64,000 nucleotides of DNA from an uncultured Actinomycetota bacterium (lineage in GTDB: Bacteria; Actinomycetota; Acidimicrobiia; Spongiisociales; UBA4744), in NCBI GenBank assembly GCA_963718995.1, contig CAVRAP010000008.1:1236-65235 (forward strand), in the 5' to 3' direction. The stretch's first letter is position 1. Every line of letters starts with the position of its first letter. The translations under genes were made by a program, and so were the position numbers. Positions 37,905-64,000 of this stretch are shown here, one piece after another. The notes beneath the pieces were generated by a model, which was given only the letters and a program-made list of their open reading frames with translations, was not told the DNA's origin and did not search any database.

Positions 37905-37905
37905 C

Positions 37906-39362: not shown

Positions 39363-39375
39363 GATCCGAGGCGAC

Positions 39376-43637: not shown

Positions 43638-43661
43638 GTCGCTTTACACTATGTCGCTGTT

Positions 43662-43882: not shown

Positions 43883-43903
43883 CGGTGGCGTGGCCACCGT
43901 TAT

Positions 43904-45537: not shown

Positions 45538-46290
45538 ATGAAACGTCGACGAGCGAAGGCCTTGGAGGCTCCGTTTTCTGATTCGTGGCGCGCCCTGCTG
45601 GGCGAGAGGTTGACTTGGTGGCCGGCTCTCGACGCTACGGATCGCCTCAACATGGAGGATCTGATTCGTACCTTCCTGGCCGAGAAGCTTTTCGAAGGCA
45701 CCCGCGGATTTGAACCGACGGAAGACATGAAAGTCCTGGTCGCCGCCCAGGCATGTCTCCTGATCCTGGGTCTTGATTACGGCCTCTATCGCGACGTGAC
45801 TTCCGTGATCATTTCGCCAACGATTGTGCATCAGGCCGGGCCGCGCCATCTCGACGGCGGGATCGTCAGCGGCGACCCTACCGCTCTGGCGGGTCAGGCC
45901 ATGCTCCACGGCCCCGTCCTCATCGTCTGGGATCAGCTGTCCCGCCAATTTCGCCACCCCGGTCGAGGTCATAACGTGGTCTTTCACGAGTTTGCCCACA
46001 AGCTCGACATGCGAAATGGGGCCAGCGATGGGGTGCCACCTATGTCGGCAGAGCTGAAACGCCGCTGGGAACCGGCGCTGCGCTCGACCCTGCAACGGCT
46101 GCGGGACGGCGCACAGGTCGAGCTCGATGCGTATGCGGGCACGAATCCGGCCGAGTTGCTGGCAGTCGCCACCGAAGCATTCTTCGACACCCCCTCCCGC
46201 CTGTCGCAGGAGGAACCCGAGCTGTACGACCTGCTCAAGGCTTTCTACCGCCAGGATCCCGCCTCACGACGGGGAGACGACCGGTCCTGA
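45538..46290 (+). CDS. MtfA-family (M90) zinc-dependent peptidase
   Basis: HEFAH zinc-binding motif and MtfA-like core; internal ATG at 45538. Confidence 0.7.
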   Translation: MKRRRAKALEAPFSDSWRALLGERLTWWPALDATDRLNMEDLIRTFLAEKLFEGTRGFEPTEDMKVLVAAQACLLILGLDYGLYRDVTSVIISPTIVHQAGPRHLDGGIVSGDPTALAGQAMLHGPVLIVWDQLSRQFRHPGRGHNVVFHEFAHKLDMRNGASDGVPPMSAELKRRWEPALRSTLQRLRDGAQVELDAYAGTNPAELLAVATEAFFDTPSRLSQEEPELYDLLKAFYRQDPASRRGDDRS

Positions 46291-46520
46291 AGGCTTCGGG
46301 CGGGTCGGTCTACAACGGGAGCGAGGGCGGCCGGGCTGATCATGATGGTGAGCCGTCCCGGTTCGTGGATCACCCGTCAACCAGAGGTCAGTCCGGTCGT
46401 CGCGTCACGCTCCCGTTCTCTCTGTATGACGGAGTGCTGCCGGTTAGCCGGGGTCGAGGGTTGGAGCTTGGAGCGAGGAACTTGTAACTTGGTCAGGCCA
46501 CCGGTGAAAACCGGTGACCT

Positions 46521-46613
<93 letters not shown>

Positions 46614-46682
46614 GGTGCATGCCGTTGGCCTTGCTGGGCCGAAATCGGGGATACGGGCCTTTGGAAGGCGGTTGCCCTCCTC

Positions 46683-46850
46683 TCACCTCAGCAGCGGGCG
46701 GCCGTGGCGTTCTTCTATCTCGAGGATCGTCCGGTCCGCGAGATCGCTGGTCTGCTCGGCTGTTCCGAAGCCACGGCGAAAGTCCATCTTCACAAAGGGC
46801 GGTTGGCGCTCGCCACTGCCCTCGACCACAACCTCGCGAAGGAGCGGTGA
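46683..46850 (+). pseudogene. remnant of an ECF sigma factor (region 4 only), immediately 3' of tRNA-Ser(GCT)
   Basis: Translates as SPQQRAAVAFFYLEDRPVREIAGLLGCSEATAKVHLHKGRLALATAL, a region-4.2 HTH; no region 2 anywhere upstream; the frame runs into the tRNA. Confidence 0.5.
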
Positions 46851-47165
46851 TGAGCACCGACGACCGGAACCCGGATCCTCTCGACCGCAAGGTACAGCGA
46901 GGCGTTCCAAAGACAATCCAACCGTATCGCAGCTCACGTCGACGCCCGGGCCGGGCTCGAACACATAAAGGAGCCATCCACCATGGTCCGTCGTAATCTG
47001 ACAGCCGCTTTGGCCGGTGCCGCAGTCAGTCGTTCTGGTCACGGGCGCGGTGGTCCTGTTCAACCCGTTCGACGGGGGCGTCGACCCCGCCGGGCAGTCT
47101 TCGACAACCACAACCAGCGAGGCGACGGCATCTACCACTGAAATGAGCCGTCCGTTCCGGTAGCA
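46847..47165 (+). pseudogene. possible degraded anti-sigma factor (cytoplasmic N-terminus and a TM helix in different frames)
   Basis: MSTDDRNPDPL... starts with TGATG overlap on the sigma remnant stop; a TM-like segment (SVVLVTGAVVLFNPF) is found only after a frame change. Confidence 0.3.
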
Positions 47166-47196
47166 ACCTTTTCTGCGGAAGGTCAGTGTGTGTTCC

Positions 47197-48950
47197 TCAT
47201 CCCTGGCCGGCAACCCATTCATCGACCAGCCATTCGAGAGTCGACATGGTGACCGGGCCGGAGGTGAGGACGGTGTCGTGGAACCCTTTGATGTCGAATC
47301 GGTCCCCGAGGGCCGTGCGAGCCTTTTCGCGTAGGCGGAAGATCTCCCGCTGCCCGAGTCGGTAGGCGAGAGCCTGGCCGGGCCAGCCAACGTACCGGTC
47401 GACCTCCACTTCCGCTTCCGATCGGGCCACTGCGGTGTTCTCGACCAGGAAGTCGACCGCCTGATCGCGACCCCAGCCTTTGGCGTGCATCCCGGTGTCC
47501 ACAACCAGACGCCCGGCCCGCCACGAGTCGGCGGACAGCATGCCGAGTCGCTGCAGGTCGCTCGAGTACAAACCCATCTCGTCGGCCAGCCGCTCGGCGT
47601 ACAAACCCCAGCCCTCCATGAAGGAGGTGGCGCCCATGTACCGTTGGAAGGTGGGGATCTCCTCGAGTTCTCCTGCAATCGCCAGTTGGAGGTGGTGGCC
47701 CGGGATGGCCTCGTGGTATCCGATCGCCTCAGCCTGGAACTTCATCCGTTCGTGAGGGTCAACCAGATTCACGAAGTAGGTGCCGGGGCGTGATCCGTCC
47801 GGGGCCGGCGGCATGTAGTGCGCGGCCGGCAGATCCTTGGCCATGAACTCCGGGATGGCCGCAATCAGGCAGTCGGCTTGAGGGAGTACGCCGAACCAGT
47901 CCCCGATCGCTGCCTTGGCACGAGTCAGGATATTGCGGGCGGATTCCATGATTTCGTCGGCGGACGCGAAGCGGAGATCGAGGTCATCGCGAAGATGATC
48001 GAAGATCGCCGGCACCGAGCGGGTGCCGAAGACCTTTTCCCCAATCTCGGAGTATTCGGCTGCCAACCTGACCTCGATGTCGTCCATTCCGATCTCATGG
48101 ATCTCGTCGGGGGTCAGCTCGAGACCGGTGTGCTGGGTGACCGCGGAAGCGTAGATTTCGTCGCCGCCCTCGACCCAGGTGAGTCCGCACCGATCATCCG
48201 GTCGTGCCACAGGTAGCAATTCGCTCTCAAAGGCGTCGCGGTAACGCTGAAAGGCCGGACGGAGGGTGCCGGCGACGATGGCGCCCAGCTCGTTCCGCCA
48301 GGCCGTTTCGCCGTCCCATTCCTGCGGTCCGCCGACCGTGGCAAACATGTCCGCGTCCGGAGGGGACGCAAGGTAGCCGTCCAGCATGCTGAGGCTACGG
48401 ACGACCGTGATCCGGGCGGGTGGTCGCCCTTTCCGTATCGCTGTGCGAAAGCGATCGAACGCCTGGTCCAGGGATGCCGGAATGGCCCGGAGACGCTCGA
48501 GATAGGCCCCGGCGTGCTCAGGCTCGGGGAACATCCACTGTGATACGACATGCATCAGCGAAGCGTGGGGTGAAACCAGCTGATCGCTCTGCATCTCGGC
48601 GATCTCACTGTCAATCGCGGCTACGTTCTTCCGGCACTCTCCGATCATCACTTCCCGAGTGACTTGCTCCGCATGACTGAGGGTGGTGGGATCGATGGCT
48701 GCGGCCCGGTTGGCGAAATCGCTGAGCTGCTCGCGCTGAATCCCTTCCTGCTCCTCGGAGTAGTCCTCGATCAGGTGGTCGAACCGGTGATCTCCGAGCA
48801 TCGTTGCCGAAGACGGTGAGTTCTCCAGACCGAAATTCCACAACTCGGTGGCGAGGCGGTCGAGTTCAGGATGCATCAGGTTCTCCCCGGGGTCGCGACG
48901 GGCGAAGTCTGGCACAGTCGCAGGCAGGTCGTTCTCCCAAGACCGCCGGA

Positions 48951-48954
<4 letters not shown>
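47197..48954 (-). CDS. DUF885-family protein (putative metallopeptidase-like), co-transcribed downstream of metH
   Basis: 585-aa ORF with the DUF885 core including the AIPGHHLQ motif; 4-nt overlap with the metH stop. Confidence 0.8.
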
Positions 48955-52412
<3,458 letters not shown>

Positions 52413-52530
52413 GCCGCTCCTTCGGATAGATCGAAGAGGAGCGAAAGCGCCACCTCATCGATCAGGCCTTGGCACCGTGATCCCGGGGATCGGTTGCCGC
52501 GGTTTCGTCGGGCCTGTCCCTCCACCGCTC
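52413..52530 (-). promoter_or_regulatory. SAM-I (S-box) riboswitch in the metH leader, with an SD-sequestering expression platform
   Basis: Minus strand: CUCAUCUUGAGCGGUGGAGGGACAGGCCCGACGAAACCGCGGCAACC...ACGGUGCCAAGGCCUGAUCGAUGAGG matches S-box P1-P4 conserved positions; downstream GCUCCU...GGAGCG hairpin occludes the SD before the ATG at 52412. Confidence 0.7.
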
Positions 52531-52640
52531 AAGATGAGTTCGCAGAAGCATACCCTCGGTCGATCGATGGTCAACATGCGGGGTTTTCGTTTACTCCGGG
52601 GTCGACTACCTTTAGCGAGCAAACCCCTCGTGGGGATTGT

Positions 52641-52715
52641 GCGCCCGTAGCTCAATTTGGATAGAGCGTCTGACTACGGATCAGGAGGTTGGGGGTTCGA
52701 GTCCCTCCGGGCGTG
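52641..52715 (+). tRNA. tRNA-Arg (anticodon ACG)
   Basis: GCGCCCGTAGCTCAATTTGGATAGAGCGTCTGACTACGGATCAGGAGGTTGGGGGTTCGAGTCCCTCCGGGCGTG; anticodon loop CTACGGA. Confidence 0.9.
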
Positions 52716-52912
52716 CGCCGTTCGCTGCGCTCACGAACCGAGTTCGGCTTCGCCGAACATCGCCTTGCGTGGGCTTTGCGTTGTCAATCTCCGATGGCGC
52801 TGCGGGGTTTCGGTCATCTCCCGCCGAGTTCCAGGCTGCCTGGCCGGCGACCCGGGCAGGTGGCTGGTCATCTCGCACAGGACGTACCCATCCCCGGTCC
52901 TACACTCCTGTG

Positions 52913-54160
52913 ATGCCCAATTCGTCCGCTGTTCCTGCGCGCTCCTTTGTGGGGTGGCGGATTCTTGCCTTGGCTGTTCTGACCGCCGCGTTGACCGGTC
53001 CGGGTCAGACCATCGGGGTCTCCGTCTTCGTTGACTCCTTCATCCAGGATCTCGACTTGCAGAGATCAGCGGTGGCCGCTGCCTATCTCATCGGAACACT
53101 GGCCGCTGCGCTTGCCTTGCCGACAGTGGGGCGCCGCATCGACTCGCTCGGCGTGCGCCGGGGCATGACGATCATTGGATCTGCCTTTGTATTGGCTCTC
53201 ATCCTGATGTCACGGGTGTCAGGGTTCGTAACCCTGACGGCCGGATTTGTGCTGATCCGCATGCTGGGTCAGGGTTCGTTGTCGTTGGTCTCGACCGTGG
53301 CGGTGACCCTGTGGTTCGAGAGGCACCGCGGTCTAGTACTCGGAGTCCTGGCCACCGGATCAGGCATGCTCATGACCTTGGTCCCGATCGGTTCGAACGC
53401 TCTCATCGACTCCATCGGTTGGCGATCCGCCTGGTTGGTGCTTGCCGGTGTCGTGGCGCTGACCGTGGTTCCCATCGGATGGTTCGGCATGATCGACAGG
53501 CCCTCCGACCGAGGCCTCGCTCCCTACGGCGTGAAATCGTCGGACTCGACCGAAAGGCGCAGCGTTCGCCGGTCGTTCACTCGGCCCGAAGCCGTGCGGA
53601 CTGCCCGATTCTGGATCCTCGTTGCGGGTTCTACGTCGGCTGGCATGCTCATCACCGCCCTGAACTTCCACCAGATCTCGCTGCTCGGGGACGCCGGCCT
53701 CACGACCGCCGAGGCGGCCGCTATGTTTCTCCCCCAGTTCGTCGGTACGGCCATGGCCGGGATCGCCTTCGGGTGGATCAGCGACAGGCTGACCGGTCGC
53801 ACGCTCATTCCGTTAGTCATGGCGGTTCTCGCGATCACCTTGCTCCTGGCGGGGACACTGACCGATGGCCCAATCGTCCTGGTCTATGCCCTCTTGCTCG
53901 GCGCCACGGGCGGAGCCTCCCGGAGTGTTGGGAGCACATTGATGCCCCGCTGGTTCGGCGTCGACCACATCGGGTCGATCACGGGATTGGCAACGCTGGT
54001 CTCGGTGGCCGGCACGGCGGTCGGCCCTGTCGCGTACTCGCTGGCCCGGGACGTGACCGGTACCTACACCACGGTTTCTCTGGTCATGGTTTCTGTGCCG
54101 CTGCTGGTCGCCTTGGCAGCCATCGCCGCCGGGCAAAGGATGACGGCCGGAGCCGGGTAG
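52913..54160 (+). CDS. MFS transporter (12 TM)
   Basis: Twelve predicted helices, MFS motif A-like GRRIDSLGVRRG; ATG at 52913; the longer track ORF overlaps the tRNA and is rejected. Confidence 0.8.
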   Translation: MPNSSAVPARSFVGWRILALAVLTAALTGPGQTIGVSVFVDSFIQDLDLQRSAVAAAYLIGTLAAALALPTVGRRIDSLGVRRGMTIIGSAFVLALILMSRVSGFVTLTAGFVLIRMLGQGSLSLVSTVAVTLWFERHRGLVLGVLATGSGMLMTLVPIGSNALIDSIGWRSAWLVLAGVVALTVVPIGWFGMIDRPSDRGLAPYGVKSSDSTERRSVRRSFTRPEAVRTARFWILVAGSTSAGMLITALNFHQISLLGDAGLTTAEAAAMFLPQFVGTAMAGIAFGWISDRLTGRTLIPLVMAVLAITLLLAGTLTDGPIVLVYALLLGATGGASRSVGSTLMPRWFGVDHIGSITGLATLVSVAGTAVGPVAYSLARDVTGTYTTVSLVMVSVPLLVALAAIAAGQRMTAGAG

Positions 54161-54327
54161 CGAGTCTGTTACCCATGCTGCACCAGTGGTTGGTGGAGCG
54201 GGTGGTCACGTGGGTGGCCCGCTGGTCAGGGGTCGACAGGCCGTTTGAGTGAGGAACTCGGTCGAAACGGAATCCCCCTCGCTGGTGTGCCCGCCGCAGC
54301 CGTCAAGGTCCGTGTACGGATGTTTCC

Positions 54328-55735
54328 TTAGGGTTGCCGGAAAGGGACGGAGTCGGCGATCGGCAAAGAGATCCGGACTGTTGCGCCCCCGCCGGGCGTG
54401 CCGGTGATGGCGACGTCACCCTGGTGCGATGAGACAACCTCGCGGACGATGGCCAGTCCGAGGCCGGCGCCTCCCTTGGTTCGGTCCCGGCCCCGATCCG
54501 GTCGTGCGAATCGGTCGAACACCAACTCGCGTTCGGATTCGGCTATCCCCGGTCCATGGTCGGCGACGGTGATGTGAGCGTGGGCATCGGTGCGATGCGC
54601 CTCCAGCTCAATCGGGGTAGACGCTCCGCCGTAGGCGACGGCGTTGGTGATGAGGTTTTCGATGGCCTGCCGCAACCAGACGGGATCGGCGTCGACCATG
54701 ATTGATCCGTCGGTGTCGACACGGATGTCGCAACCGGTGGAGATACGCATATCCTCGGCGATGTCCTTCACGAGGGCGCCGACATCCAGGCGCTCACGGC
54801 CGGAGCCGATCTCTCGATCGAGGCGGGCGAGCGCCAGCAGATCTTCAATCAACCGCCCGGCGCGATGGCTGGCTTCATTGATACGTTCCATCGCCCGATC
54901 GAGCTTCGGGCCCGGCTCCACCCCGCCTTCGGCGTAGAGCTCGGCGTATCCGGTGATGGCTGCAATCGGCGTCCGCAGCTCGTGGGAGGCATCGTCGGCA
55001 AAGCGGCGGAGGCGCTCGGCCTCGCGCAGGCGGTCCCGGTCGGCGCTCTCGATACGGGCGAGCATGTGGTCGAGTGCCGTCGCCAGTCTTCCGAGCTCGG
55101 TACTTGACTGGACCAGGTCGGCCCTTTTCGTGAGGTCACCCTCGGCGATGGCGCCGGCGGTGTCGATCATGTCGTCGACCGGTCGGAATCCTCTTCTGAG
55201 CAGCAACCACGCGACCGTGATTCCCGCCAGCGCCGCCATCAAGCTGACGGCCAGCGAGATCAAGACCGTTTGGCGGGCCGCCAAGTCCACTGAGTCCAGG
55301 GACCGGGCGAGCAGCTCATATCCATCGGGGCTCTCCCGGACCAAGGCGCGCACCGATCCCGAACCATCGATTGTCGCCCAGCGTGACGAAGGTTCCGGCG
55401 CTTCCACCCAGGTCTGCCTCGGTCAGATTGCTCACGTCCGGCAGGGGTTCAGGCTCGTCGGCGTACCCGGCGGGCTGTTCGAAGACGACCTCGCCATTCT
55501 GGTTGAAGCGAATCAGAGCGAAAGGTTGGAAGGGCTCGTCGCCGGGGGCGGGCACGGCCGGACTGGGACCGGGACCGGGTCGGGTGGAGAAGGCCAGCAG
55601 GTCTTCGTCCACCCGATCGATGAGAACCCGTCTGGTCGTCAGCGAAACGGCGGCGGCGATAGAGGCGCTGACAATGAGGATGATGAGCCCGACCACGATG
55701 GTCAGGCGACGCCGCAGCGTCCACGGCCGGCTCAT
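54328..55735 (-). CDS. two-component sensor histidine kinase (TM sensor, HAMP, HisKA, HATPase); one apparent frameshift between 55316 and 55407
   Basis: N-terminal TM plus sensor in ORF 55316..55756, remainder in ORF 54328..55407 (H-box DDASHELRTPIAAITGYAEL; N, G1, G2 boxes); ATGA overlap with the response regulator stop. Confidence 0.8.
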
Positions 55736-56424
55736 GGACCGGAGGAGCGCAGGCAATAGCCGAACCCGCGCACGGTGTGGATGAGCTTGGGACGGCCTTC
55801 GTCGACCTTCTTGCGGAGCTGTGACACCGCGGTCTCGATCACCGAGTCGCTGTACTCGTACCCCCAGACGGCTTCCAGGATCTGCGCCCGGGACAGGACT
55901 TGTTCGGCGTTCGCCAGGAGGTAGCGGAGCAAACGGTATTCGACCGGCGAAAGGCTGATTTCGTCGTCTCCCCGCGACACGCGATGCTGCGCATCGTTCA
56001 GGACCAGATCGGCACAGATCAGCTCGATCGTTGGCCGCCGGATTCCGCCGCTACGCCGCAGGAGGGCCTCCACCCGCAACCGCAGTTCCTCCAGCCTGAA
56101 CGGCTTCGTGAGGTAGTCATCGCCGCCGGCCTCAAACCCGGCTCGCAGGTCCTCGATGTTGGATCGGGCGGTGAGGAACAGCACCGGCAGGTCCGGGTCG
56201 GTGCTGCGCAAGCTCCTGGCCACCTGAAAGCCGTCGGGTTCTGGCATGTTGACGTCCAGAATCACCAGGTCCGGCCGCTGAGTTCGCACGGTGTTGAGGG
56301 CTGCGAGGCCGTCGGTCGCTACCACGATGTCGTACCCGGCGAAGCTCAGCGCGTCGCTGACCATGTCGAGCAGCATCTGCTCGTCGTCCACAACGAGGAT
56401 CTGTGCCTTGGCAGCATCGGTCAT
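55732..56424 (-). CDS. OmpR/PhoB-family response regulator
   Basis: Receiver domain (ILVVDDE, phospho-acceptor D in LVILDVNMP, K in YLTKPF) plus winged-helix trans_reg_C. Confidence 0.85.
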   Translation of the reverse strand: MTDAAKAQILVVDDEQMLLDMVSDALSFAGYDIVVATDGLAALNTVRTQRPDLVILDVNMPEPDGFQVARSLRSTDPDLPVLFLTARSNIEDLRAGFEAGGDDYLTKPFRLEELRLRVEALLRRSGGIRRPTIELICADLVLNDAQHRVSRGDDEISLSPVEYRLLRYLLANAEQVLSRAQILEAVWGYEYSDSVIETAVSQLRKKVDEGRPKLIHTVRGFGYCLRSSGP

Positions 56425-56499
56425 CGCCACAACTCTAGGGTCGCCGGCTGCGTCCCCTTCATCGTTCGGTAGCGATCGCGATCGGCCAAACATCCCGGC

Positions 56500-57945
56500 C
56501 TACCTCTCGACCACGGTCTCGAGGAACGCCATCCGATCAGCGACCCATTGACGTTTCGCCGCTGCGGCTCTTTCGAGCTCGGTATCGGTCACGAACTGCC
56601 GGTCGGCATTGCTTGTAACCAGTAGCCCCGAGTACTCGTCGATGAGATCGGCGACGCCATCACCCGCAAACAGGATCTCGTAGAGCTCGGCGTAGCGCTG
56701 CTCGTAGGCAGCCAGGAACGAGTCGGTGGCCAGGAACCGATCGACCAGGGGGTTGTTGTAGTCGAAGGTCACGTCACCACCACCGACTCCGGGCTCATTG
56801 GCGATCCCGTCGAGGGGTGGGCCACCTCCTCCCGGCCCTGCCGGCCTCTCGCCGCCCGCACCATCTGCACCGCCGGCGCCGGATCCGGTGAGGTTGCTCC
56901 AATCTGGCAGCAACACGGTGCTGGGTTCGGTCGAGGCCATCCAGAAGCCGCCGAAGCTCTCGTTGAGGTCCCAGGCCAACACCGTGGACCGGTCATCACC
57001 GGCGTCGTACCACAGGTAGTAGTTGTTGCCGTTCCCGGGCATCGAATCGACGCTGACCAGCAGGTTGTTGACGGCGACGTAGTTCACGAACGATTCGATG
57101 TCGAGCCAGTCCTCCAGCTCGGCCTCGAACTCCTCGTCGGTGGAGGTGTCGACGAACTCGAGGAAGTCGATCAACGGCTCCAGATCCGCCTCATTCGTGG
57201 CGGTCTCCTGGGTGAAGGCGCCTTCATAGGCGGTCGGGTCGTGGCCGAGATAGGTGAACGAGTCCCCCGATTGGGCCTTGTAGAGCACTCCGTCATCGTC
57301 GAAGAGCCGTTCGACGTAGCCGTTGTCGAGGAGTTCGACCACCACCCGCAGGGTCTCGGCTTCACCGTTGATGGAGAGCCCGGTGTAGCTCGTCCCGGGG
57401 AACGGCAGTCCGGCGATCTCGAGGACCTCGGCGGTCACCATCTCCTCGAGAATCAGTTCATCTCCCCGGGGTCCCTCGGTGCGGAGGGCCAGTTCCGAGA
57501 ACCCCTGATAGGTGACGCCCGAGGTGTACTCGTCCAGCTTCACCAGAAACGGAATGTCGTCGGGGTCGGCACCGCCCTGCAGCGCCGTGCGGAGCGTCGA
57601 GTTTCCCTTGATGCGCACTCCGACGTCTTCGATGGTGACGCCGTCGATGGTGATGTCGGCGAGGAAATACTCCTTCTCACCGGTCTGTGTGTAGATGGTG
57701 ATGGCGGCCTCTAGATCGGACTGATCGAAGTCGAGCGCGATCGTGTGCACCACGGAGTCGTCGAATAGGTCAACAACATTGGTGTAGTCGACGCCAACGC
57801 TGGTGGATGACCCCGCCTCGTTGTCGCCTCCTGTACCTACATAGGCAATGATGCGCGTCTGGCCGCCCACCAGTGCCAGGGTCACCGCCAGCGCCACCAT
57901 GCCCAGCGGGATCTTCCAATGTCTGCGCCACCTTGTGCTCATCAT
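56500..57945 (-). CDS. CotH-family protein (atypical secreted kinase fold) with signal peptide and Gly-rich low-complexity insert
   Basis: Signal peptide MMSTRWRRHWKIPLGMVALAVTLALVGG; CotH motifs NNYYLWYD and WDLNESFGG. Confidence 0.75.
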   Translation of the reverse strand: MMSTRWRRHWKIPLGMVALAVTLALVGGQTRIIAYVGTGGDNEAGSSTSVGVDYTNVVDLFDDSVVHTIALDFDQSDLEAAITIYTQTGEKEYFLADITIDGVTIEDVGVRIKGNSTLRTALQGGADPDDIPFLVKLDEYTSGVTYQGFSELALRTEGPRGDELILEEMVTAEVLEIAGLPFPGTSYTGLSINGEAETLRVVVELLDNGYVERLFDDDGVLYKAQSGDSFTYLGHDPTAYEGAFTQETATNEADLEPLIDFLEFVDTSTDEEFEAELEDWLDIESFVNYVAVNNLLVSVDSMPGNGNNYYLWYDAGDDRSTVLAWDLNESFGGFWMASTEPSTVLLPDWSNLTGSGAGGADGAGGERPAGPGGGGPPLDGIANEPGVGGGDVTFDYNNPLVDRFLATDSFLAAYEQRYAELYEILFAGDGVADLIDEYSGLLVTSNADRQFVTDTELERAAAAKRQWVADRMAFLETVVER

Positions 57946-57951
57946 GTTCTC

Positions 57952-58635
57952 CTACAGATCAGAGCTGCCGTATCCCGTGAGCAGCGTCACCTTCTGGTTC
58001 TCGTTGAGGCGCTTGATCTCAGCCAGGAAGGCTTGCCGGTTGGTCGATGGTTTCAGGGCGATGGCGTACACCACCTCGGTCAACATCCCGCCGCGGACCG
58101 AATCGACGCTCACCAATTCGGCCCGTTCGGTGTTCCTGGTCAGGAGGTCGTCGAGCACCGTCTCGAAGGGGATGTCATTGGTGACCTGCACCTTCAGCAT
58201 CTGGGAGACGCTGGTGCGGTCATACCAGTTGAACCTGCTCATCAGCATCACAACCATCGAGATGACGGCGGTGGCGATGATGGCCAGCAGGTAGAAGCGG
58301 GTGCCGGCGGCCATGCCGATGGCCATGGCAAAGAACACGAATCCGACATCGCGGGTCTCTTTGATCGCATTGCGGAACCGGATGATGGAAAGCGCACCGA
58401 CCAGCGAAAAGGCCCGGGCGATGTTCGAGCCAACTACCAGCATGATGACACTGACGATCATTCCCATCAGTACCAGGGTCTGCACGTAGCTCTTCGTGTA
58501 CGACGCTCCCTCGTGGGTGCGCATGTACACCCACCCGACGATGGCCGTGAGCACAAAGCTCAGGACCATGCTGATCACTACATCCGCCACCGTGAAGGTG
58601 CTGGTCAGGTCCTCGAACAGAAATAGCTCATCCAT
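57952..58635 (-). CDS. DUF4956-family integral membrane protein
   Basis: Three or four TM helices and the conserved LVGALSIIRFRNAIKETRDVGFVFFAMAIGMAAG segment. Confidence 0.75.
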   Translation of the reverse strand: MDELFLFEDLTSTFTVADVVISMVLSFVLTAIVGWVYMRTHEGASYTKSYVQTLVLMGMIVSVIMLVVGSNIARAFSLVGALSIIRFRNAIKETRDVGFVFFAMAIGMAAGTRFYLLAIIATAVISMVVMLMSRFNWYDRTSVSQMLKVQVTNDIPFETVLDDLLTRNTERAELVSVDSVRGGMLTEVVYAIALKPSTNRQAFLAEIKRLNENQKVTLLTGYGSSDL

Positions 58636-59433
58636 GGGTTCTTACCTTTCGTAGGTTCAGTCGTTGGTCGTCAAAGAAGAAAATCGAGCGGGGGGTCAGT
58701 TCGGCCGCTTCGAGGCTCTGGCAATACTTCGAGATCCGGATCAGCTCGCAGTCGTGGCGGGCAACCAGCTCGGTCAGCCAGAAGGGGATGCGTTCATTGA
58801 CCTTGACCTCCATGACCTCCCACGAAGGGTTGATGGCCGGCAGGCCCGGCCCGGGAGAGGTCAGGTCGAGGTCCCGGGAGCGGTACCGGATGTCTTTGTC
58901 GAAGGTGACCCGGAGGCCTGGATCGGGCTCCCGGCCCACGTACGCCTCTCTCTCGTAGAGCGTGATCACCGCCCGCCGTAAGTCGTAGTACAGGGTCATG
59001 GAGGCAATCTCGTCATAGGTGGCCGTGTCCCTCGGGTCATGTGGGGGGACGATCCCGGAACCACACAGCGCCAGCGCCTCGGCGAGTGGCGCGACGATGC
59101 GCCGTTTCTGGGTCACCCGATTGACCCGCTGCTTGATCTCGGCGAACACCATGGTCGATGGCTCCGGAGCCGGGTCGTAGGAGCGGATTCTGAGCTTCCG
59201 ACGGAACTTGATCCCGTCGAGTTTTTCCCAATAGAACCGGTGGTCTTCGGTGTCGTAGTACAACGATGCCAACGGATACGAACCGGTCGGTCCTGCGTGC
59301 GGGTCGAGGTCGACGTAGTGCACCAAGTCATCCCGAAAGGCGTTCGCCTGGTCCGACGTCAACAGATATTTGAGCTCGAACCGGTTGAACGACCGCACCG
59401 CGCTCGTCGGGTTGGGGTTGATGCTCAGGTGCG
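58590..59433. repeat. copy A of a >=844-bp near-identical direct repeat (partner at 63157..64000)
   Basis: Covers the first 15 codons of the DUF4956 gene plus most of the VTC gene; one nucleotide difference seen (58682 A versus 63249 G, synonymous). Confidence 0.85.
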
Positions 59434-59476
59434 GTTGGGGTTTCTGGCGCGTCGTCATGCCACCACTGTCCACCAC
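58628..59476 (-). CDS. VTC-domain (CYTH-like triphosphate tunnel, polyphosphate-polymerase-domain) protein
   Basis: Hallmark FNRFELKYLL start, YYDT, FAEIKQR, EVKVNE motifs of PF09359; start could be ATG 59476, ATG 59458 or GTG 59431. Confidence 0.8.
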   Translation of the reverse strand: MVDSGGMTTRQKPQPHLSINPNPTSAVRSFNRFELKYLLTSDQANAFRDDLVHYVDLDPHAGPTGSYPLASLYYDTEDHRFYWEKLDGIKFRRKLRIRSYDPAPEPSTMVFAEIKQRVNRVTQKRRIVAPLAEALALCGSGIVPPHDPRDTATYDEIASMTLYYDLRRAVITLYEREAYVGREPDPGLRVTFDKDIRYRSRDLDLTSPGPGLPAINPSWEVMEVKVNERIPFWLTELVARHDCELIRISKYCQSLEAAELTPRSIFFFDDQRLNLRKVRTHG

Positions 59477-59611
59477 GCAACTGGTGGCCCCCCAAGCGCA
59501 AGCTCAGCGTTCCCTCACGATCGTGAATCGAGCGCGGTATCCAAAAGGAACGCCACGGTCGGTTCAACCTGGGAAGCGCCCCCGCCGGGAGCCAAGTTGG
59601 GAGCCATTCGC

Positions 59612-59700
59612 AGTGGACCTGTGTGGACGGCTGTGGACGCCGGTGAAATCGAAAGCCTTTCATTTCGGGCTGTGTGGACGTCTGTGGACGTCTGTGGACG
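59612..59700. promoter_or_regulatory. two clusters of three 10-bp-phased direct repeats (TGTGGACG; CGTCCACAGA on the operon strand) upstream of the VTC operon
   Basis: Units at 59612 (variant AGTGGACC), 59622, 59632 and at 59673, 59683, 59693; phasing typical of OmpR/PhoB-family tandem half-sites; also resembles the DnaA box (CGTCCACA versus TTGTCCACA). Confidence 0.5.
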
Positions 59701-59715
59701 CTGCTTGGAGATCTG

Positions 59716-59755
59716 CGGATCAGGAGGTTGGGGGTTCGAGTCCCTCCGGGCGTGC
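59716..59755 (+). repeat. 40-bp exact copy of the tRNA-Arg 3' half (anticodon loop to acceptor stem); attR-like
   Basis: cggatcaggaggttgggggttcgagtccctccgggcgtgc identical to 52677-52716. Confidence 0.8.
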
Positions 59756-60059
59756 TAGTGAAACCCCTGCGAGAGCGGGGGTTTCGTCGCGAGCAGGGGT
59801 TGGCTCCCGGAAGCAGGTGGACCTTGGGAGCCTTTCTCCATCTGAGGCGGCTTTCGCTTCGAGGTTGCGGCTTGGTGAAGCGTGATATATGCGGATGCGT
59901 GAAGACGCTATTCCCGCCCGGGATCGGCCGTTTCGCCGAGCGACCGGACAATCTTGCGAGCCTCCTCGCCCCGAAGGGATTGAGACACGATCTTGGGCGT
60001 AATGTTGTTCGTGTTCAGGTTTTGGCCGCATTCGCTCCCTGTATAAGTGGAGGATCAGA

Positions 60060-60557
60060 GTGGTCGAGGCGCTCAACCGGGAGATCAACGTTTCGAGAGG
60101 GTCGGAACTCGATGGTTTCGACCGGCTGTATAGAGAACAGGCATCTCGCTTGTGGCGGGCGCTTACCGCGTACACGGGCAGTCGCGACGTGGCACAGGAT
60201 GCGGTCGCTGAGGCTTTCGCGCAAGCGATTGCGCGCGGCGGAGAGATTCATTCACCGCTGCAGTGGGTGTGGAAGTCCGCATATCGAATCGCAGCTGGTG
60301 AGCTGAAGCGACGTGGAGCATTCACCGAGTTGGTGACCGATCATCCGACGACGGCAGACGAACCAGCGTCGGAGGTTCGAGCGGCGTTGATGAAGCTGTC
60401 GCCGATGCAGCGCTCGGCGGTGGTGTTGCACTACTACGCGGGTTATCCGGCTGCCGAGATCGCCCGAATCACCGGCTCGACCGCCGCTGCAGTGTGGGTG
60501 CACTTGAGTCGGGGACGGCGCCACATGGCCCAGTTGCTGGAGGTAGACGATGACTGA
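60060..60557 (+). CDS. ECF sigma factor
   Basis: Region 2 (DVAQDAVAEAFAQA) and region 4 (LSPMQRSAVVLHYYAGYPAAEIARITGSTAAAVWVHLSRGRRHM); GTG start with SD GGAGGA. Confidence 0.8.
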   Translation: MVEALNREINVSRGSELDGFDRLYREQASRLWRALTAYTGSRDVAQDAVAEAFAQAIARGGEIHSPLQWVWKSAYRIAAGELKRRGAFTELVTDHPTTADEPASEVRAALMKLSPMQRSAVVLHYYAGYPAAEIARITGSTAAAVWVHLSRGRRHMAQLLEVDDD

Positions 60558-62061
60558 CTTGCGGGAACGCCTCAGCGAATTGGATCGGCTCGATGCACCT
60601 GATATGCGGGTGAGCATCGATCGGCGTGTCGGCGAACTCCAATCTGCCACCCGTGTGTCACTTGTCCATTCAGCAAGTCCGGTGTGGCGGGGTCCGCTGA
60701 TCGCATTGGCGACGGCTGTTGCGGCCATCCTGGTGGTTGCCGCGTCGATGCTGGTGTTGCGGACGGAACAGCCGGACATGGTCGACGAACCGGCTCCCAC
60801 CTCTCCGACAACGATCGAGGCGCCCGAGACGAGCTCTCCGTCGGCGAATCAGGCTCCTCCGAGATCCCCGGCTTATTACGGTGCAGCCCTCATCGAGTGG
60901 ATGTATGGCGTATGTGACGTTGCGGTTGCGCCGGATGGTCTGGTGTACGCGGCGGCCCCGGCGGGGATCGGCTCAATGGACGCAGCGGGCGAGTGGACCC
61001 TGATCGACATTGCCGGACTCCCGCAGGGCAGACCTCTGGACAACGGGTGGCCGGCTCCGAGGATCGGAAACGTCGCCATCGGCCCCGACGGCGCTCTGTG
61101 GGCGGGCGGCACCTCCTGGTCCACCGTCGACGATGAGGAGTTCGGGGGAGTTATCGCCGAGCCGTTGGGCTCCATGGCGCCGGCGGCCCGGTTCAAGACG
61201 TGGGCGGCACGCTACGACTGCGGTCGGGAACCATGCTCGTGGACGGTGTTCACTACGGACGTGGCTCCCGGAACGGACTTCGACATCGGCGATATGGCGG
61301 TGTCGAGCGACGGAACCGTCTACCTCACCACCGGTGACAACCTGTTGCTCATTCTCGACGGGACCGAATGGGAATCCCACACCGTCCCGGGGCTCCCGAC
61401 CGGCTTCGGTAGCGGCGTGTCGCCGTGGTCGAGTTCGCTGGCGATCGATGCCGATGGTGTCGTGTGGGTGGGCACCAACGCCAATGACGATCCGGGGTGG
61501 GGGATCCCCAGCAGCGACTTTCGCGAAGGGCGCGGTCTGTTCGCTTTCGACGGTACCGATTTCACTCGATACACCACCGAGGACGGGCTTCCCAGCGATC
61601 GCGCCTTCCAGGTGTCGGTCGATGCAGATGGAACTATCTGGGTCGCCACCGACGGCCCTGATCACGTGAATCGGATCGTCGGGGAATATGGGTTTGTATG
61701 GTACGAGGGCCCTAACACGAGCCTGCCGCCGGAAGCAGCAGCCGGGATCGCCGGCTTCGACGGCACCACCTGGACCCCTTACACGGCCGCCGACGGACTG
61801 CTGTCGAACAACGCCGTACTGGCTGCAAGCCCTGACGGGACCATGTGGGCTCTTCACTCTGCGACAACCCCCTACGGGTACTCCCACTTCGACGGCACCG
61901 CATGGACCGCCTATCCGGCCGAACTCCCGGCTGGTGCGTTCCGGACCTTCCGGGCAGAAGTTGCTCCCGACGGGACCCTGTGGACGATCTCAGATCAGGG
62001 TGTGGGTAGCTTCGACGGCATCACCCCAACGATCCACACATCACTGTTTCCCCGCCCGTGA
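60550..62061 (+). CDS. anti-sigma-like membrane protein fused to a two-component-regulator-propeller (Reg_prop) beta-propeller domain
   Basis: 8-nt overlap with the ECF sigma; cytoplasmic N-terminus, one TM (LIALATAVAAILVVAASMLVL), Pro/Ser linker, then ~8 repeats of the DG(T/A)(L/V)W...FDG..WT.Y propeller type. Confidence 0.7.
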   Translation: MTDLRERLSELDRLDAPDMRVSIDRRVGELQSATRVSLVHSASPVWRGPLIALATAVAAILVVAASMLVLRTEQPDMVDEPAPTSPTTIEAPETSSPSANQAPPRSPAYYGAALIEWMYGVCDVAVAPDGLVYAAAPAGIGSMDAAGEWTLIDIAGLPQGRPLDNGWPAPRIGNVAIGPDGALWAGGTSWSTVDDEEFGGVIAEPLGSMAPAARFKTWAARYDCGREPCSWTVFTTDVAPGTDFDIGDMAVSSDGTVYLTTGDNLLLILDGTEWESHTVPGLPTGFGSGVSPWSSSLAIDADGVVWVGTNANDDPGWGIPSSDFREGRGLFAFDGTDFTRYTTEDGLPSDRAFQVSVDADGTIWVATDGPDHVNRIVGEYGFVWYEGPNTSLPPEAAAGIAGFDGTTWTPYTAADGLLSNNAVLAASPDGTMWALHSATTPYGYSHFDGTAWTAYPAELPAGAFRTFRAEVAPDGTLWTISDQGVGSFDGITPTIHTSLFPRP

Positions 62062-62086
62062 CAACAAACAGCTAGGAGGTGTGAAC

Positions 62087-62668
62087 GTGCCGGGCCAACT
62101 CCGCACCCCGACCAGGAGATGGATGTCATGGAGGCACTTTGTGAGACATCGTGCGGTTCTTCTACTGCCTGTTCTTACCCTGATTCTTGGAGCGTGTGGC
62201 GCCAGTTCCATCACAGGAGATCGGACCTTCGTCTACGGGACTGGCAACTGCGACTGCAACTTCGCTTCGGCGACCGCCGAGGGTGATACACAGATCCTCA
62301 ATGGAACGTGTGTCTGCATAACTCACCTATCCGACCCGAGAGTCAATGGGTACGAAGAAATCCCTATGACCCTGACCATGTTTCCGGACCAGACCCCGGA
62401 AGTGCACTGGTTCGAGTACAACGACGCAACCCTCACCAGCGAAGAAGCCACATGGGGCAAAGGCGAGGGCTTCGGCAGTGAGTTCTTCGACAAGAGTGGC
62501 GGCTTGCTGACTAGTGGATACGCCAGATACCTCGGTGAAGGTACGTTTGACGGTCTCGTGTACGAGTACTTCTACTCGCAGGCTCCCGCCTTCGCTTCGG
62601 AGGACGACCCCCACGAGGGCTATCGGATCTCTGGATGGATCATGCAGGTCCCGGACGAAAAAAACTGA
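62087..62668 (+). CDS. secreted lipoprotein, Cys-rich N-terminal region (function unknown)
   Basis: Signal peptide with lipobox LILGAC; CDC/C.C motifs; start GTG 62087 or ATG 62123. Confidence 0.55.
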   Translation: MPGQLRTPTRRWMSWRHFVRHRAVLLLPVLTLILGACGASSITGDRTFVYGTGNCDCNFASATAEGDTQILNGTCVCITHLSDPRVNGYEEIPMTLTMFPDQTPEVHWFEYNDATLTSEEATWGKGEGFGSEFFDKSGGLLTSGYARYLGEGTFDGLVYEYFYSQAPAFASEDDPHEGYRISGWIMQVPDEKN

Positions 62669-62804
62669 ACCGCCCCATATCACGGGAATCTCGCACCAAA
62701 AAGAGCATGTCGCCGAGTGTCCCCGAGCGGCACGTCGGCGTGTGCTCGTCTGGGGCCTCATCCGCTCCCGGACATTCGTCACAGCATTACCGAGATGTGG
62801 AATC

Positions 62805-63134
62805 ATGCGCAACGTGATGCAACCTACGCTTCGCGCTACCACGGAGTCCGGGGCCGTCTGGGACGATCCTTCGGAGGATCTGCTCTTCGAACTGCTCTCC
62901 GATGTGGAACAAGGAAGAGAGTTGTTTCTCGTTATTCACCGACTCGGCGCTACCGACATGTACATCCAGGTCTTATTGCAAGACGAATGGACTTACCTCG
63001 TCGAGCACCGTGATGGGGGACCGTCATCGCATTTCGCTGCGACGTCCCACGACAAGCGGACCGTGCACGAGGTCCTCACGACATGGGCCTACCAGCTTCC
63101 CGGTGGACGAGCCTGCTCGGTTGGACGTCCGTGA
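62805..63134 (+). CDS. hypothetical small cytoplasmic protein (109 aa)
   Basis: ORF from an internal ATG; no recognisable domain. Confidence 0.45.
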   Translation: MRNVMQPTLRATTESGAVWDDPSEDLLFELLSDVEQGRELFLVIHRLGATDMYIQVLLQDEWTYLVEHRDGGPSSHFAATSHDKRTVHEVLTTWAYQLPGGRACSVGRP

Positions 63135-63156
63135 GTTTCTAGCTAGAGCCGTCACG

Positions 63157-63204
63157 CCGTGAAGGTGCTGGTCAGGTCCTCGAACAGAAATAGCTCATCC
63201 ATGG
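63157..63204 (-). pseudogene. 15-codon remnant of a DUF4956 gene N-terminus (MDELFLFEDLTSTFT-A-stop) at the boundary of the duplicated segment
   Basis: Identical to codons 1-15 of the gene at 58635, then diverges into a stop. Confidence 0.5.
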
Positions 63205-64000
63205 GTTCTTACCTTTCGTAGGTTCAGTCGTTGGTCGTCAAAGAAGAAGATCGAGCGGGGGGTCAGTTCGGCCGCTTCGAGGCTCTGGCAATACTTCGAG
63301 ATCCGGATCAGCTCGCAGTCGTGGCGGGCAACCAGCTCGGTCAGCCAGAAGGGGATGCGTTCATTGACCTTGACCTCCATGACCTCCCACGAAGGGTTGA
63401 TGGCCGGCAGGCCCGGCCCGGGAGAGGTCAGGTCGAGGTCCCGGGAGCGGTACCGGATGTCTTTGTCGAAGGTGACCCGGAGGCCTGGATCGGGCTCCCG
63501 GCCCACGTACGCCTCTCTCTCGTAGAGCGTGATCACCGCCCGCCGTAAGTCGTAGTACAGGGTCATGGAGGCAATCTCGTCATAGGTGGCCGTGTCCCTC
63601 GGGTCATGTGGGGGGACGATCCCGGAACCACACAGCGCCAGCGCCTCGGCGAGTGGCGCGACGATGCGCCGTTTCTGGGTCACCCGATTGACCCGCTGCT
63701 TGATCTCGGCGAACACCATGGTCGATGGCTCCGGAGCCGGGTCGTAGGAGCGGATTCTGAGCTTCCGACGGAACTTGATCCCGTCGAGTTTTTCCCAATA
63801 GAACCGGTGGTCTTCGGTGTCGTAGTACAACGATGCCAACGGATACGAACCGGTCGGTCCTGCGTGCGGGTCGAGGTCGACGTAGTGCACCAAGTCATCC
63901 CGAAAGGCGTTCGCCTGGTCCGACGTCAACAGATATTTGAGCTCGAACCGGTTGAACGACCGCACCGCGCTCGTCGGGTTGGGGTTGATGCTCAGGTGCG
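63195..64000 (-). CDS. second copy of the VTC-domain protein gene (5' end may run off the window)
   Basis: Protein identical to copy A over 256 aa; GTG at 63965 corresponds to internal Val of copy A; the upstream ATG of copy A would lie at ~64010. Confidence 0.75.
   Translation of the reverse strand, partial: HLSINPNPTSAVRSFNRFELKYLLTSDQANAFRDDLVHYVDLDPHAGPTGSYPLASLYYDTEDHRFYWEKLDGIKFRRKLRIRSYDPAPEPSTMVFAEIKQRVNRVTQKRRIVAPLAEALALCGSGIVPPHDPRDTATYDEIASMTLYYDLRRAVITLYEREAYVGREPDPGLRVTFDKDIRYRSRDLDLTSPGPGLPAINPSWEVMEVKVNERIPFWLTELVARHDCELIRISKYCQSLEAAELTPRSIFFFDDQRLNLRKVRTHG

What the first reader, a model, noticed from the sequence alone, without database searches (positions are those of the whole stretch)
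58590..64000. >=844-bp near-identical duplication carrying the VTC gene plus a 15-codon DUF4956 stub; second copy runs off the window
58590-59433 and 63157-64000 are identical apart from one synonymous change (A58682 versus G63249, Ile codon ATT versus ATC). Copy A sits in the intact DUF4956-VTC operon. Copy B starts abruptly inside codon 15 of a DUF4956 gene (MDELFLFEDLTSTFT then A, stop) and contains a full VTC gene. In copy A the duplicated segment ends 280 bp before the att repeat. This pattern fits either two tandem elements at tRNA-Arg that each end in a VTC-att module, or a recent segmental duplication. The synonymous-only difference argues for two real loci rather than an assembly artefact.
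Basis: seen in the sequence. Interest (0 to 1): 0.6.

Follow-up and report, generated by a model that had tools for sequence, protein, structure and literature searches.

The report
Recent duplication in a tRNA-Arg island
A stretch carrying a polyphosphate-polymerase-like (VTC) gene is present twice, almost identically and 4.6 kb apart, inside a chain of integrated DNA cassettes attached to a tRNA-Arg gene; the duplication is fairly ordinary, but the conserved recombination-site module that bounds these cassettes is widespread in soil and sediment metagenomes and I found no description of it.

Summary
Window 58590-59433 and 63157-64000 are identical except A58682/G63249, and the change is synonymous. 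Copy B starts in codon 16 of a DUF4956 stub. Copy B's VTC start codon (predicted 64025) lies outside the window, so the gene is not fully visible, and the "280 bp before att" end is only the window edge.

Context: tRNA-Arg(ACG) at 52641-52716 heads an array of integrated cassettes with no integrase. Cassette 1 (52717-59755) ends in a ~170-nt attP-like module: two GGGAGCCA sites, 3+3 GTGGAC repeats at 10-bp spacing, then the 40-nt tRNA 3' core. A hairpin and a third GGGAGCC site follow the core, which marks the left end of a second cassette. The same module occurs in more than 120 metagenome stretches, often as arrays with unrelated cargo and rarely with an integrase. A relative (L084) carries the same VTC operon between two tRNA-Arg fragments.

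Copy A is the parent because its operon is intact and syntenic with relatives. Copy B is a recent truncated copy. The simplest model is a tandem duplication of the unit 58590-63156 (4,567 bp). The sequence past 64 kb could not be obtained, so the extent is unproven.

The parts
52641..52716 (+). Intact tRNA-Arg(ACG). It anchors the array; its last 40 nt (52677-52716, from anticodon base 2 onward) are core copy 1.
   Evidence: ARAGORN; exact repeat.
52937..54160 (+). MFS transporter, the tRNA-proximal cargo of cassette 1. The tRNA-proximal end 52717-52830 lacks the family's GGGAGCC left-arm site.
   Evidence: Pfam; motif scans.
54328..55756 (-). Histidine kinase, split over two reading frames: N-terminal part 55316-55756, remainder 54328-55407.
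   Evidence: Pfam. BLASTP to the L084 kinase: residues 1-130 and 131-471 match the two frames contiguously.
55732..56493 (-). OmpR-type response regulator.
   Evidence: Pfam.
56500..57945 (-). CotH kinase-family protein.
   Evidence: Pfam.
57952..58635 (-). Intact DUF4956 membrane protein. Its first 15 codons lie inside duplicated segment A.
   Evidence: Pfam; exact protein present in the database.
58628..59458 (-). VTC-domain (polyphosphate-polymerase-like) gene, copy A.
   Evidence: Pfam E=4.9e-46; identical to P0001.
58590..59433 (.). Visible part of duplicated segment, copy A (the parent).
   Evidence: Lies inside an operon syntenic with L002, L084 and L085.
59587..59715 (+). P-arm of the attP-like module. 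Contains the 21-mer GGGAGCCAAGTTGGGAGCCAT (59587-59607), GTGGAC at 59613, 59623, 59633, a spacer, GTGGAC at 59674, 59684, 59694, and GCTTGGAGATC.
   Evidence: Conserved in 50 distinct metagenome copies.
59716..59755 (+). Core copy 2: the displaced tRNA-Arg 3' fragment, 40/40 identical to 52677-52716.
59756..59836 (+). P'-arm-like left end of cassette 2: GC hairpin 59760-59785 and third arm site TTGGGAGCCTTTC at 59824-59836.
59926..62745 (+). ECF-sigma block: sigma factor 60060-60557, Reg_prop anti-sigma-like protein 60550-62061, lipoprotein-like protein 62087-62668. About 91.6-91.8% nt identity to L083 and L206, where it is not next to any att site.
   Evidence: Logan contig L001 is identical over 59733-62885.
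62792..63152 (+). Block with a 109-aa gene (62805-63134). 91.4% nt identity to L082, where the context is unrelated. The homology stops 5 bp before copy B.
63152..63202 (-). DUF4956 stub: 15 native codons, then Ala, then stop.
63157..64000 (.). Duplicated segment, copy B. It runs off the window.
63195..64000 (-). VTC gene copy B. The start codon is predicted at 64025, outside the window.
   Evidence: coordinate arithmetic.

Best explanation
The window holds the tRNA-proximal part of a tandem-accretion island anchored on tRNA-Arg(ACG). The island is a chain of cassettes without integrases. Each cassette is bounded by an attP-like module, which consists of a P arm with two GGGAGCCA sites and 3+3 GTGGAC repeats, a 40-nt tRNA 3' core that begins in the anticodon loop, and a P' arm with a terminator hairpin and a third GGGAGCC site. 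Within this island a single recent event duplicated the 4,567-bp unit 58590-63156 in tandem. That unit runs from DUF4956 codons 1-15 through VTC, the att module and the ECF-sigma block to the 109-aa gene. The one new joint, 63156|63157, arose by illegitimate recombination, cut DUF4956 after codon 15 and produced an orphan second VTC gene.

What is shown: the near-identity, the truncation, the att-module family, the absence of an integrase, and that copy A is the parent. What is inferred: that copy B continues through a second module and core (predicted 64154-64322) and then a second ECF block; that a tyrosine integrase encoded elsewhere made the array; and that the cargo operon (VTC, DUF4956, CotH plus a two-component system) handles polyphosphate at the membrane.
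For: The duplication and its spacing come, and the stub. Copy A lies in the five-gene order VTC-DUF4956-CotH-RR-HK, which is conserved in L002, L084 and L085 at 72-92% aa identity, so copy A is the source.

The att module is conserved in more than 120 metagenome stretches. The core sits at +129 from the 21-mer and a third GGGAGCC site lies about 100-114 nt after the core start. Modules form same-orientation arrays, for example four in 5.5 kb in L148. Genuine tRNA-Arg(ACG) genes head the arrays in L097, L100, L108, L111, L120, L124 and L153. Cargo is unrelated between cassettes, so the GTGGAC arrays belong to the att site and not to the VTC promoter. L084 carries the same VTC operon and module between two tRNA-Arg fragments.

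Both TTGGGAGCC matches in the 64-kb window flank core copy 2. Elsewhere, modules within an array are only 77-83% alike and the similarity stops at the module, so 99.9% identity that includes cargo indicates a recent event in this genome. A tandem duplication needs only one new joint, and the homology to L082 ends 5 bp from that joint. The database cluster of the VTC protein has a single member. This fits copy B encoding the identical protein, meaning identity continues at least to 64025.
Against: The sequence beyond 64000 was not obtainable, so the tandem unit is an inference from parsimony. No microhomology is visible on the one side of the joint that can be seen. Kilobase-scale tandem duplications are unstable, so a fixed copy carrying a real substitution would require selection or a very recent origin. 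No read-level data were available. The integrase that would act on these sites was not found in the window. The tRNA-proximal end of cassette 1 lacks the family's left-arm site.
Confidence: 0.45

Rival explanations
1. Dispersed copy or sibling elements. Cassette 2 is a separate element whose right end (stub-VTC-P arm-core) is a copy of cassette 1's right end. This could arise from two integrations of the same element followed by internal replacement, or from insertion of a copied fragment. After the second core, different sequence follows.
For: An array architecture with a proper left arm after core copy 2. L084 shows the VTC operon as a self-contained att-bounded unit. Tandem re-integration of the same element is known for tycheposons. 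A real substitution between the copies fits a stable, somewhat older arrangement.
Against: It needs at least two new joints, or several replacement events, within the time in which only 1 of 844 nt changed. Cassette 2's interior is a patchwork of blocks found elsewhere without att sites. No core or P arm precedes copy B, so the left joint is not integrase-made. No other array shows cargo-level identity between neighbouring cassettes.
Confidence: 0.25
2. Assembly or strain chimera. The two left contexts of the VTC segment (intact DUF4956 versus the 109-aa gene) belong to different strains or molecules in the sample, and the assembler threaded them into one contig. The A/G difference would then be a strain polymorphism.
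For: The source is a metagenome-assembled contig of 103,138 bp. The independent Logan contig L001 confirms only 59733-62885 and stops 272 bp before the copy-B joint. Relatives come from assemblies that show frameshift-type errors (split CotH and other genes in L085; the HK frameshift here).
Against: Both left joints must exist in real DNA, since the flanks share nothing that could cause a false join. Sister assemblies have Flye-style contig names, and the Microflora Danica pipeline uses Nanopore reads with Flye, so a ~1-5 kb repeat would normally be bridged by reads. Attributing the source to that project is an inference. L001's end lies inside a gene that is at least 90% conserved across many genomes, which by itself explains a k-mer break.
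Confidence: 0.15
3. The TGTGGACG array is a binding site for the operon's response regulator and the 40-nt tRNA piece is an inert relic. On this view the locus is ordinary chromosome with a local duplication and no mobile-element context.
For: OmpR/PhoB-type regulators bind direct repeats at 10-11 bp spacing (general knowledge). The array sits 150-240 bp upstream of VTC, in an operon that encodes such a regulator.
Against: The same array, 21-mer and core accompany unrelated cargo in dozens of contigs. The array is absent upstream of VTC in L002 and L085, which have the operon but no tRNA fragment.
Confidence: 0.03

Closest known systems
Tandem accretion of integrative elements with decayed CIMEs (cis-mobilizable elements), e.g. 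ICESt1/ICESt3 of Streptococcus thermophilus (review PMC5704250)
   Same: Successive site-specific integrations at the 3' end of one target gene. Elements that keep their att sites but have lost integration genes. Arrays separated by repeats of the target's end.
   Different: Here the target is tRNA-Arg(ACG) in Acidimicrobiia-like genomes. Cassettes are often only 0.7-4 kb, integrase remnants are rare, and the whole ~270-bp attP-like module stays strongly conserved. No conjugation genes were seen.
Tycheposons of Prochlorococcus (bioRxiv 10.1101/2020.12.28.424599)
   Same: Cargo-carrying elements at tRNA genes. Neighbouring elements are separated only by a partial tRNA, and incoming elements push older ones outward. 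Tandem-repeat junctions were seen in cultures.
   Different: Tycheposons carry their own integrase and a replication module; the cassettes here do not. The host phylum differs and no sequence relationship was tested.
Integron gene-cassette arrays
   Same: Same-orientation chains of small cassettes carrying diverse cargo, each ending in a conserved recombination site, with the recombinase acting in trans.
   Different: No intI/attI platform was found. The site is a lambda-type attP with arm repeats plus a tRNA core, not a folded attC palindrome. The anchor is a tRNA gene.
Lambda-type attP of tyrosine integrases and tRNA-targeting actinomycete integrative elements such as pSAM2 and SLP1 (own knowledge)
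   Same: A core identical to the tRNA 3' part starting in the anticodon loop. Multiple arm-type direct repeats on both sides within about 270 bp. The element supplies the tRNA 3' end and a terminator hairpin.
   Different: The arm motifs (GGGAGCCA, GTGGAC) do not match any I can recall. The integrase is not adjacent to the site.
Spontaneous bacterial tandem duplications (own knowledge)
   Same: Direct orientation, near-identity, and the second copy beginning where the first unit would end. One illegitimate joint truncates a gene.
   Different: The full unit and the right end are unseen. One substitution separates the copies.
CotH / polyphosphate-polymerase (VTC) / DUF4956 accessory gene set described next to Gram-positive pel loci (bioRxiv 10.1101/768473)
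   Same: The same three protein families are encoded contiguously.
   Different: Here the set is coupled to a two-component system rather than to pel genes, and it sits on an att-bounded cassette.

Membership tests
tRNA-targeting integrative element / genomic island | An intact tRNA gene at one end and a direct repeat of its 3' part at the other. | tested here: met
   tRNA-Arg 52641-52716; 40/40 repeat at 59716-59755.
tRNA-targeting integrative element / genomic island | Encodes its own integrase (autonomous element). | tested here: not met
   All genes of 52717-63156 have other Pfam assignments or none. No window ORF matches two Pfam-verified integrases from related loci.
CIME-type accretion array | att sites retained while integration genes are lost; several units in tandem at one target. 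| tested here: met
   A P arm, core and P' arm are present at 59587-59836. Arrays of the same module occur in L084, L098, L129, L148 and L154. A third core in this window cannot be seen.
CIME-type accretion array | Excision or mobilisation by an integrase supplied in trans. | not testable with these tools
   Needs read-level junction data or an experiment.
Lambda-type attP (tyrosine integrase) | Arm-type repeats on both sides of a core whose crossover region lies in the tRNA anticodon loop. | tested here: met
   Consensus of 50 modules; positions in the window; identity starts at anticodon base 2. Protein binding was not tested.
Integron | An intI gene with an adjacent attI, and attC sites with R''/L''-L'/R' palindromic structure. 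| tested here: not met
   No integrase lies near tRNA-Arg; MetH and DUF885 are upstream. The module is built of direct repeats, not an attC-type palindrome.
Tycheposon | Tycheposon-type integrase plus a replication module inside the tRNA-flanked element. | tested here: not met
   None in cassette 1 or in the visible part of cassette 2.
Tandem duplication | Two direct, near-identical copies, with the second starting exactly at the end of the first unit. | tested here: inconclusive
   The first 844 nt of the putative second unit match the first 844 nt of the first unit. The remaining 3,723 nt lie beyond the window.
VTC / DUF4956 / CotH cassette | Contiguous genes with Pfam VTC (PF09359), DUF4956 (PF16316) and CotH (PF08757) domains. 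| tested here: met
   The same order is found in L002, L084 and L085.
Rfam RNA families (module as an RNA gene) | A match at gathering score. | tested here: not met
   Only a sub-threshold tRNA hit of 22.7 bits against a threshold of 29, over the fragment.

The most novel reading that the evidence does not exclude
The ~270-bp module (two GGGAGCCA sites, 3-4 + 3 GTGGAC repeats, tRNA-Arg core, hairpin, third GGGAGCC site) defines an undescribed, integron-like cassette system of soil and sediment Actinomycetota. Small cassettes (0.7-8 kb) without integrases and with unrelated cargo would be captured one after another at tRNA-Arg(ACG) by an integrase acting in trans, and their sites would be kept intact by selection. 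On this reading the VTC duplication is a trace of ongoing cassette shuffling.
Probability: 0.3. Interest if true: 0.7.

Novelty: new member of a known kind. Interest (0 to 1): 0.42.

Why it matters
The duplication alone is a minor, probably short-lived structural variant that gives one Acidimicrobiia-like genome a second, orphan polyphosphate-polymerase-like gene. The context matters more. tRNA-Arg(ACG) in these uncultured soil and sediment bacteria is a collecting point for many small cassettes bounded by one well-conserved recombination module. That gives a concrete DNA signature for finding the flexible gene pool of these lineages. It also allows the open questions to be tested: which integrase serves the sites, whether cassettes circularise, and whether they move between hosts. 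Mixed tRNA core variants within one array (L154) suggest that they do move between hosts.

Tried and rejected
1. Extending past 64 kb failed. The source contig (103,138 bp, P0001) is withheld: exact look-ups of the VTC, DUF4956, CotH and 109-aa proteins returned nothing. Only the Logan contig L001 (59733-62885) was returned.

2. The genome-contig scan did not contain the source genome. The best hit was 79% identity (L002).

3. Relatives of the flanking genes (L082, L083, L206) were fetched to find an 'empty site' or the ancestral right end of cassette 2. Those blocks sit in unrelated, att-free contexts, so neither was recovered.

4. The idea that the TGTGGACG array is an operon regulator box was rejected, because the array travels with unrelated cargo.

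5. The module as an RNA gene was rejected: no Rfam family reached threshold.

6. The simple promoter and terminator scan of 59380-60100 found nothing.

7. An integrase-made left joint for copy B was rejected: there is no core or arm sequence at 63100-63157 and no further module remnant anywhere in the window.

8. IMG/VR has no copy of the 21-mer.

9. A search of the Microflora Danica paper's supplements for the run and assembly accessions found no text held, so attributing the source to that project remains an inference.

10. A cognate integrase was not identified. Only L143, L140 and L100 carry full integrases near such arrays, and their link to this module is unproven.


Full report
**The observation.** Window 58590-59433 and 63157-64000 are 844 nt each and differ only at A58682/G63249. 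The repeat finder found the same pair independently, with a start-to-start spacing of 4,567. Both copies give the same VTC protein sequence, so the change is synonymous. It turns AATC in copy A into GATC in copy B. To the left of the repeat the two contexts share nothing. In copy A the repeat begins inside the intact DUF4956 gene. In copy B the reading frame gives MDELFLFEDLTSTFTA and then a stop.

Two details of the finding need correcting.
- The start codon used for copy A is the ATG at 59458, which matches database protein P0001. It maps to 64025 in copy B, so copy B's gene is not complete inside the window.
- The statement that the duplicated segment 'ends 280 bp before att' only reflects the window edge.

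**Genes (Pfam).**
- On the minus strand, VTC (58628-59458), DUF4956 (57952-58635), CotH (56500-57945), an OmpR-type response regulator (55732-56493) and a histidine kinase form one cluster.
- An MFS transporter (52937-54160, plus strand) lies between this cluster and tRNA-Arg(ACG) at 52641-52716.
- To the left of the tRNA are core genes such as MetH and DUF885.
- To the right of the 40-nt tRNA repeat lie an ECF sigma factor, a Reg_prop anti-sigma-like protein, a lipoprotein-like protein and a 109-aa protein. Copy B follows.
- No integrase was found in the annotated stretch. No window ORF resembles two Pfam-verified integrases taken from related loci.

**Origin of the sequence.**
- The source is a 103,138-bp NCBI/ENA contig, but it is withheld from the look-up tool.
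- A 3,153-bp Logan contig from run ERR12040029 is identical to window 59733-62885. It starts inside the tRNA repeat and ends inside the 109-aa gene. That gene is at least 90% conserved in many genomes, which is enough to explain a k-mer break there.
- The closest genomes are Acidimicrobiia MAGs.

**Comparison with relatives.**
- L002, L084 and L085 keep the order VTC-DUF4956-CotH-RR-HK at 72-92% aa identity, with different flanks. Copy A, embedded in the intact operon, is therefore the parent and copy B is derived.
- L084 is collinear with window 54324-59771 at 80.5% nt. The match includes the non-coding stretch upstream of VTC and a tRNA-Arg 3' fragment.
- L084 carries a second tRNA-Arg fragment on the far side of the operon. 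ARAGORN calls that fragment a tRNA, but its 5' half does not fit. In L084, therefore, the VTC operon is a unit bounded by two tRNA-Arg fragments.

**The att module.**
IMG/VR has none.
- In most hits the 21-mer heads the same layout: three or four GTGGAC repeats at 10-bp spacing, a spacer, three more GTGGAC, GCTTGGAGATCTA, then the 3' 40-48 nt of tRNA-Arg(ACG) starting in the anticodon loop. The core sits 129 nt after the start of the 21-mer.
- After the core there is usually a GC hairpin whose stem varies by paired changes, and about 100-114 nt after the core start a third TTGGGAGCC(A/T)TTC site.
- In the window these parts lie at 59613/59623/59633 and 59674/59684/59694 (GTGGAC), 59716-59755 (core), 59760-59785 (hairpin) and 59824-59836 (third site). 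Both TTGGGAGCC matches in the 64-kb window flank the core.
- This is the layout of a lambda-type attP, with arm repeats on both sides of a core. The element supplies the tRNA's 3' end and a terminator. That comparison rests on my own knowledge; no protein binding was tested.

**Arrays.**
- Modules occur in chains in the same orientation: four within 5.5 kb in L148, three in L098, L129 and L154. Core-to-core distances run from about 0.7 to 8 kb.
- Genuine tRNA-Arg(ACG) genes head such chains in L097, L100, L108, L111, L120, L124 and L153. L111 and L120 also share the window's tRNA-Leu / four tRNA-Ser / tRNA-Arg cluster.
- Cargo is unrelated between cassettes: Fic, an ABC ATPase, DUF998, a luciferase-like oxidoreductase, an HD-GerE regulator, a STAND/cyclase protein and a hydrolase.
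- Integrases are rare. Full-length ones occur in L143, L140 and L100, and fragments in L091/L159.
- The GTGGAC arrays therefore belong to the recombination site and not to the VTC promoter. L002 and L085, which have the operon but no tRNA fragment, lack them.
- The picture is tandem accretion of integrated elements that kept their att sites and lost, or never had, an integrase. This matches what is described for CIMEs (PMC5704250) and resembles the tRNA-separated neighbouring elements of tycheposons.

**Reading the window in this light.**
- Cassette 1 spans 52717-59755. The P'-arm signature after core copy 2 shows that a second cassette starts at 59756.
- Cassette 2's interior is a patchwork. 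Window 59926/59976-62745 matches L083 and L206 at about 91.6-91.8% nt. In those relatives the block is att-free, and in L083 it is flanked by transposase genes and a PIN/RHH pair. Window 62792-63152 matches L082 at 91.4% in an unrelated context, and that homology stops 5 bp before copy B.
- No core or arm sequence precedes copy B, and no other module remnant exists in the window. The left joint of copy B was therefore made by illegitimate recombination and not by an integrase.

**How the duplication arose.**
- In the other arrays, modules on one contig are only 77-83% alike and the similarity stops at the module. Identity of 99.9% that includes cargo therefore marks a recent event within this genome, not two independent acquisitions.
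- The simplest event is a tandem duplication of the unit 58590-63156 (4,567 bp). It needs one new joint (63156|63157) and explains why copy B begins where the unit would end. It predicts that copy B continues through a second module and core (about 64154-64322) and then a second ECF block.
- The VTC protein cluster holds a single sequence. This fits copy B encoding the identical protein, so identity would run at least to 64025, unless the gene was not called.
- The rival is a dispersed copy or two sibling elements. It needs more joints or several replacements within the time of one substitution. It does sit better with a stable arrangement that had time to accumulate a real substitution.
- A strain or assembly chimera cannot be excluded without reads. 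Both left joints must exist in real DNA, however. Sister assemblies have Flye-style contig names, and the Microflora Danica pipeline uses Nanopore reads with Flye and Medaka, which would normally bridge such a repeat. Linking the source to that project is an inference (one search found no supplement text).
- My weights are: tandem duplication 0.45, dispersed copy or sibling elements 0.25, chimera 0.15, regulator-box reading 0.03, and the rest unassigned.

**What the cargo does (inference).** The VTC domain is the polyphosphate-polymerase tunnel domain of yeast Vtc4 (own knowledge). CotH, a polyphosphate polymerase and DUF4956 form a recurrent accessory gene set in Gram-positive bacteria. Here the set is coupled to a two-component system whose kinase gene is split by a frameshift. 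Copy B lacks its DUF4956 partner. If it is expressed, it could only add VTC dosage.

**Verdict.** The duplication itself is a fairly ordinary recent structural variant. The surrounding tRNA-Arg cassette array and its conserved att module are the more interesting result and should be followed up with the full contig and with reads.

Noticed in passing
window 54328-55756 (-): The histidine kinase of the VTC cassette is split by a frameshift near 55316-55407. Residues 1-130 of the L084 kinase match one frame and residues 131-471 match the other, contiguously. It is either a real pseudogene or a Nanopore indel error.
   Followed up: yes
L102, L106, L109, L115, L132, L135; L118, L157: The same 21-mer GGGAGCCAAGTTGGGAGCCAT heads other att-like modules that have different arm repeats (GGCCGACAT / GGCCACAT types) and end in the 3' parts of other tRNAs. 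The GGGAGCCA site is therefore shared by several element families with different targets.
   Followed up: partly
L099 1-1520, L104, L162: The 21-mer lies about 37 nt downstream of another tRNA's 3' end, at the junction between two halves of a tyrosine integrase gene. The halves sit on opposite strands and a 14-nt duplication lies beside them. This looks like an inverted or broken integrase gene.
   Followed up: no
L154 224, 3850, 7487; L140 (reverse strand) 3277, 4935, 7478: Different tRNA-Arg core variants, and in L140 different P arms, occur within one array. This suggests cassettes that came from hosts with different tRNA-Arg sequences, and more than one element family using the same site.
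   Followed up: partly
window 62805-63134 (+): The 109-aa protein has no Pfam match yet is at least 90% conserved in 14 database sequences from contigs with different neighbourhoods (for example L082, between MarC and an SDR gene). It is a small, strongly conserved protein of unknown function.
   Followed up: partly
window 59926-59976; L206 67-270 (-): The left edge of the ECF-sigma block retains a 51-nt remnant of a small 67-aa gene that is intact in L206. The block was therefore joined to the cassette's left arm by an illegitimate cut.
   Followed up: partly
L083 6507-7112 and 10304-12277: In a relative at about 92% nt identity, the ECF sigma / Reg_prop pair is flanked by rve-type transposase genes and a PIN/RHH toxin-antitoxin pair. 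This module seems to move between locations.
   Followed up: no
L084 8454-8530: ARAGORN reports a 'tRNA-Arg' here, but only its 3' 48 nt match the real tRNA-Arg and the 5' half cannot pair. It is a displaced fragment, a false positive to watch for when counting tRNAs in such islands.
   Followed up: yes
window 37818-52716; L111, L120: The tRNA order Leu(CAG), four tRNA-Ser (CGA, GGA, TGA, GCT), Arg(ACG) is present in the window and in two metagenome contigs. In those contigs the cluster is compact and all on one strand, and att modules follow tRNA-Arg there too. In the window Ser(CGA) is on the opposite strand.
   Followed up: partly
window 58682 / 63249: The only difference between the copies creates a GATC site in copy B where copy A has AATC. 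Because the surrounding 90 nt are identical, a systematic basecalling error should affect both copies equally, so the difference is probably a real polymorphism.
   Followed up: no
L001 (window 59733-62885): The independent Logan contig ends at 62885, inside the conserved 109-aa gene and 272 bp short of the copy-B joint. That joint therefore has no independent assembly support.
   Followed up: partly
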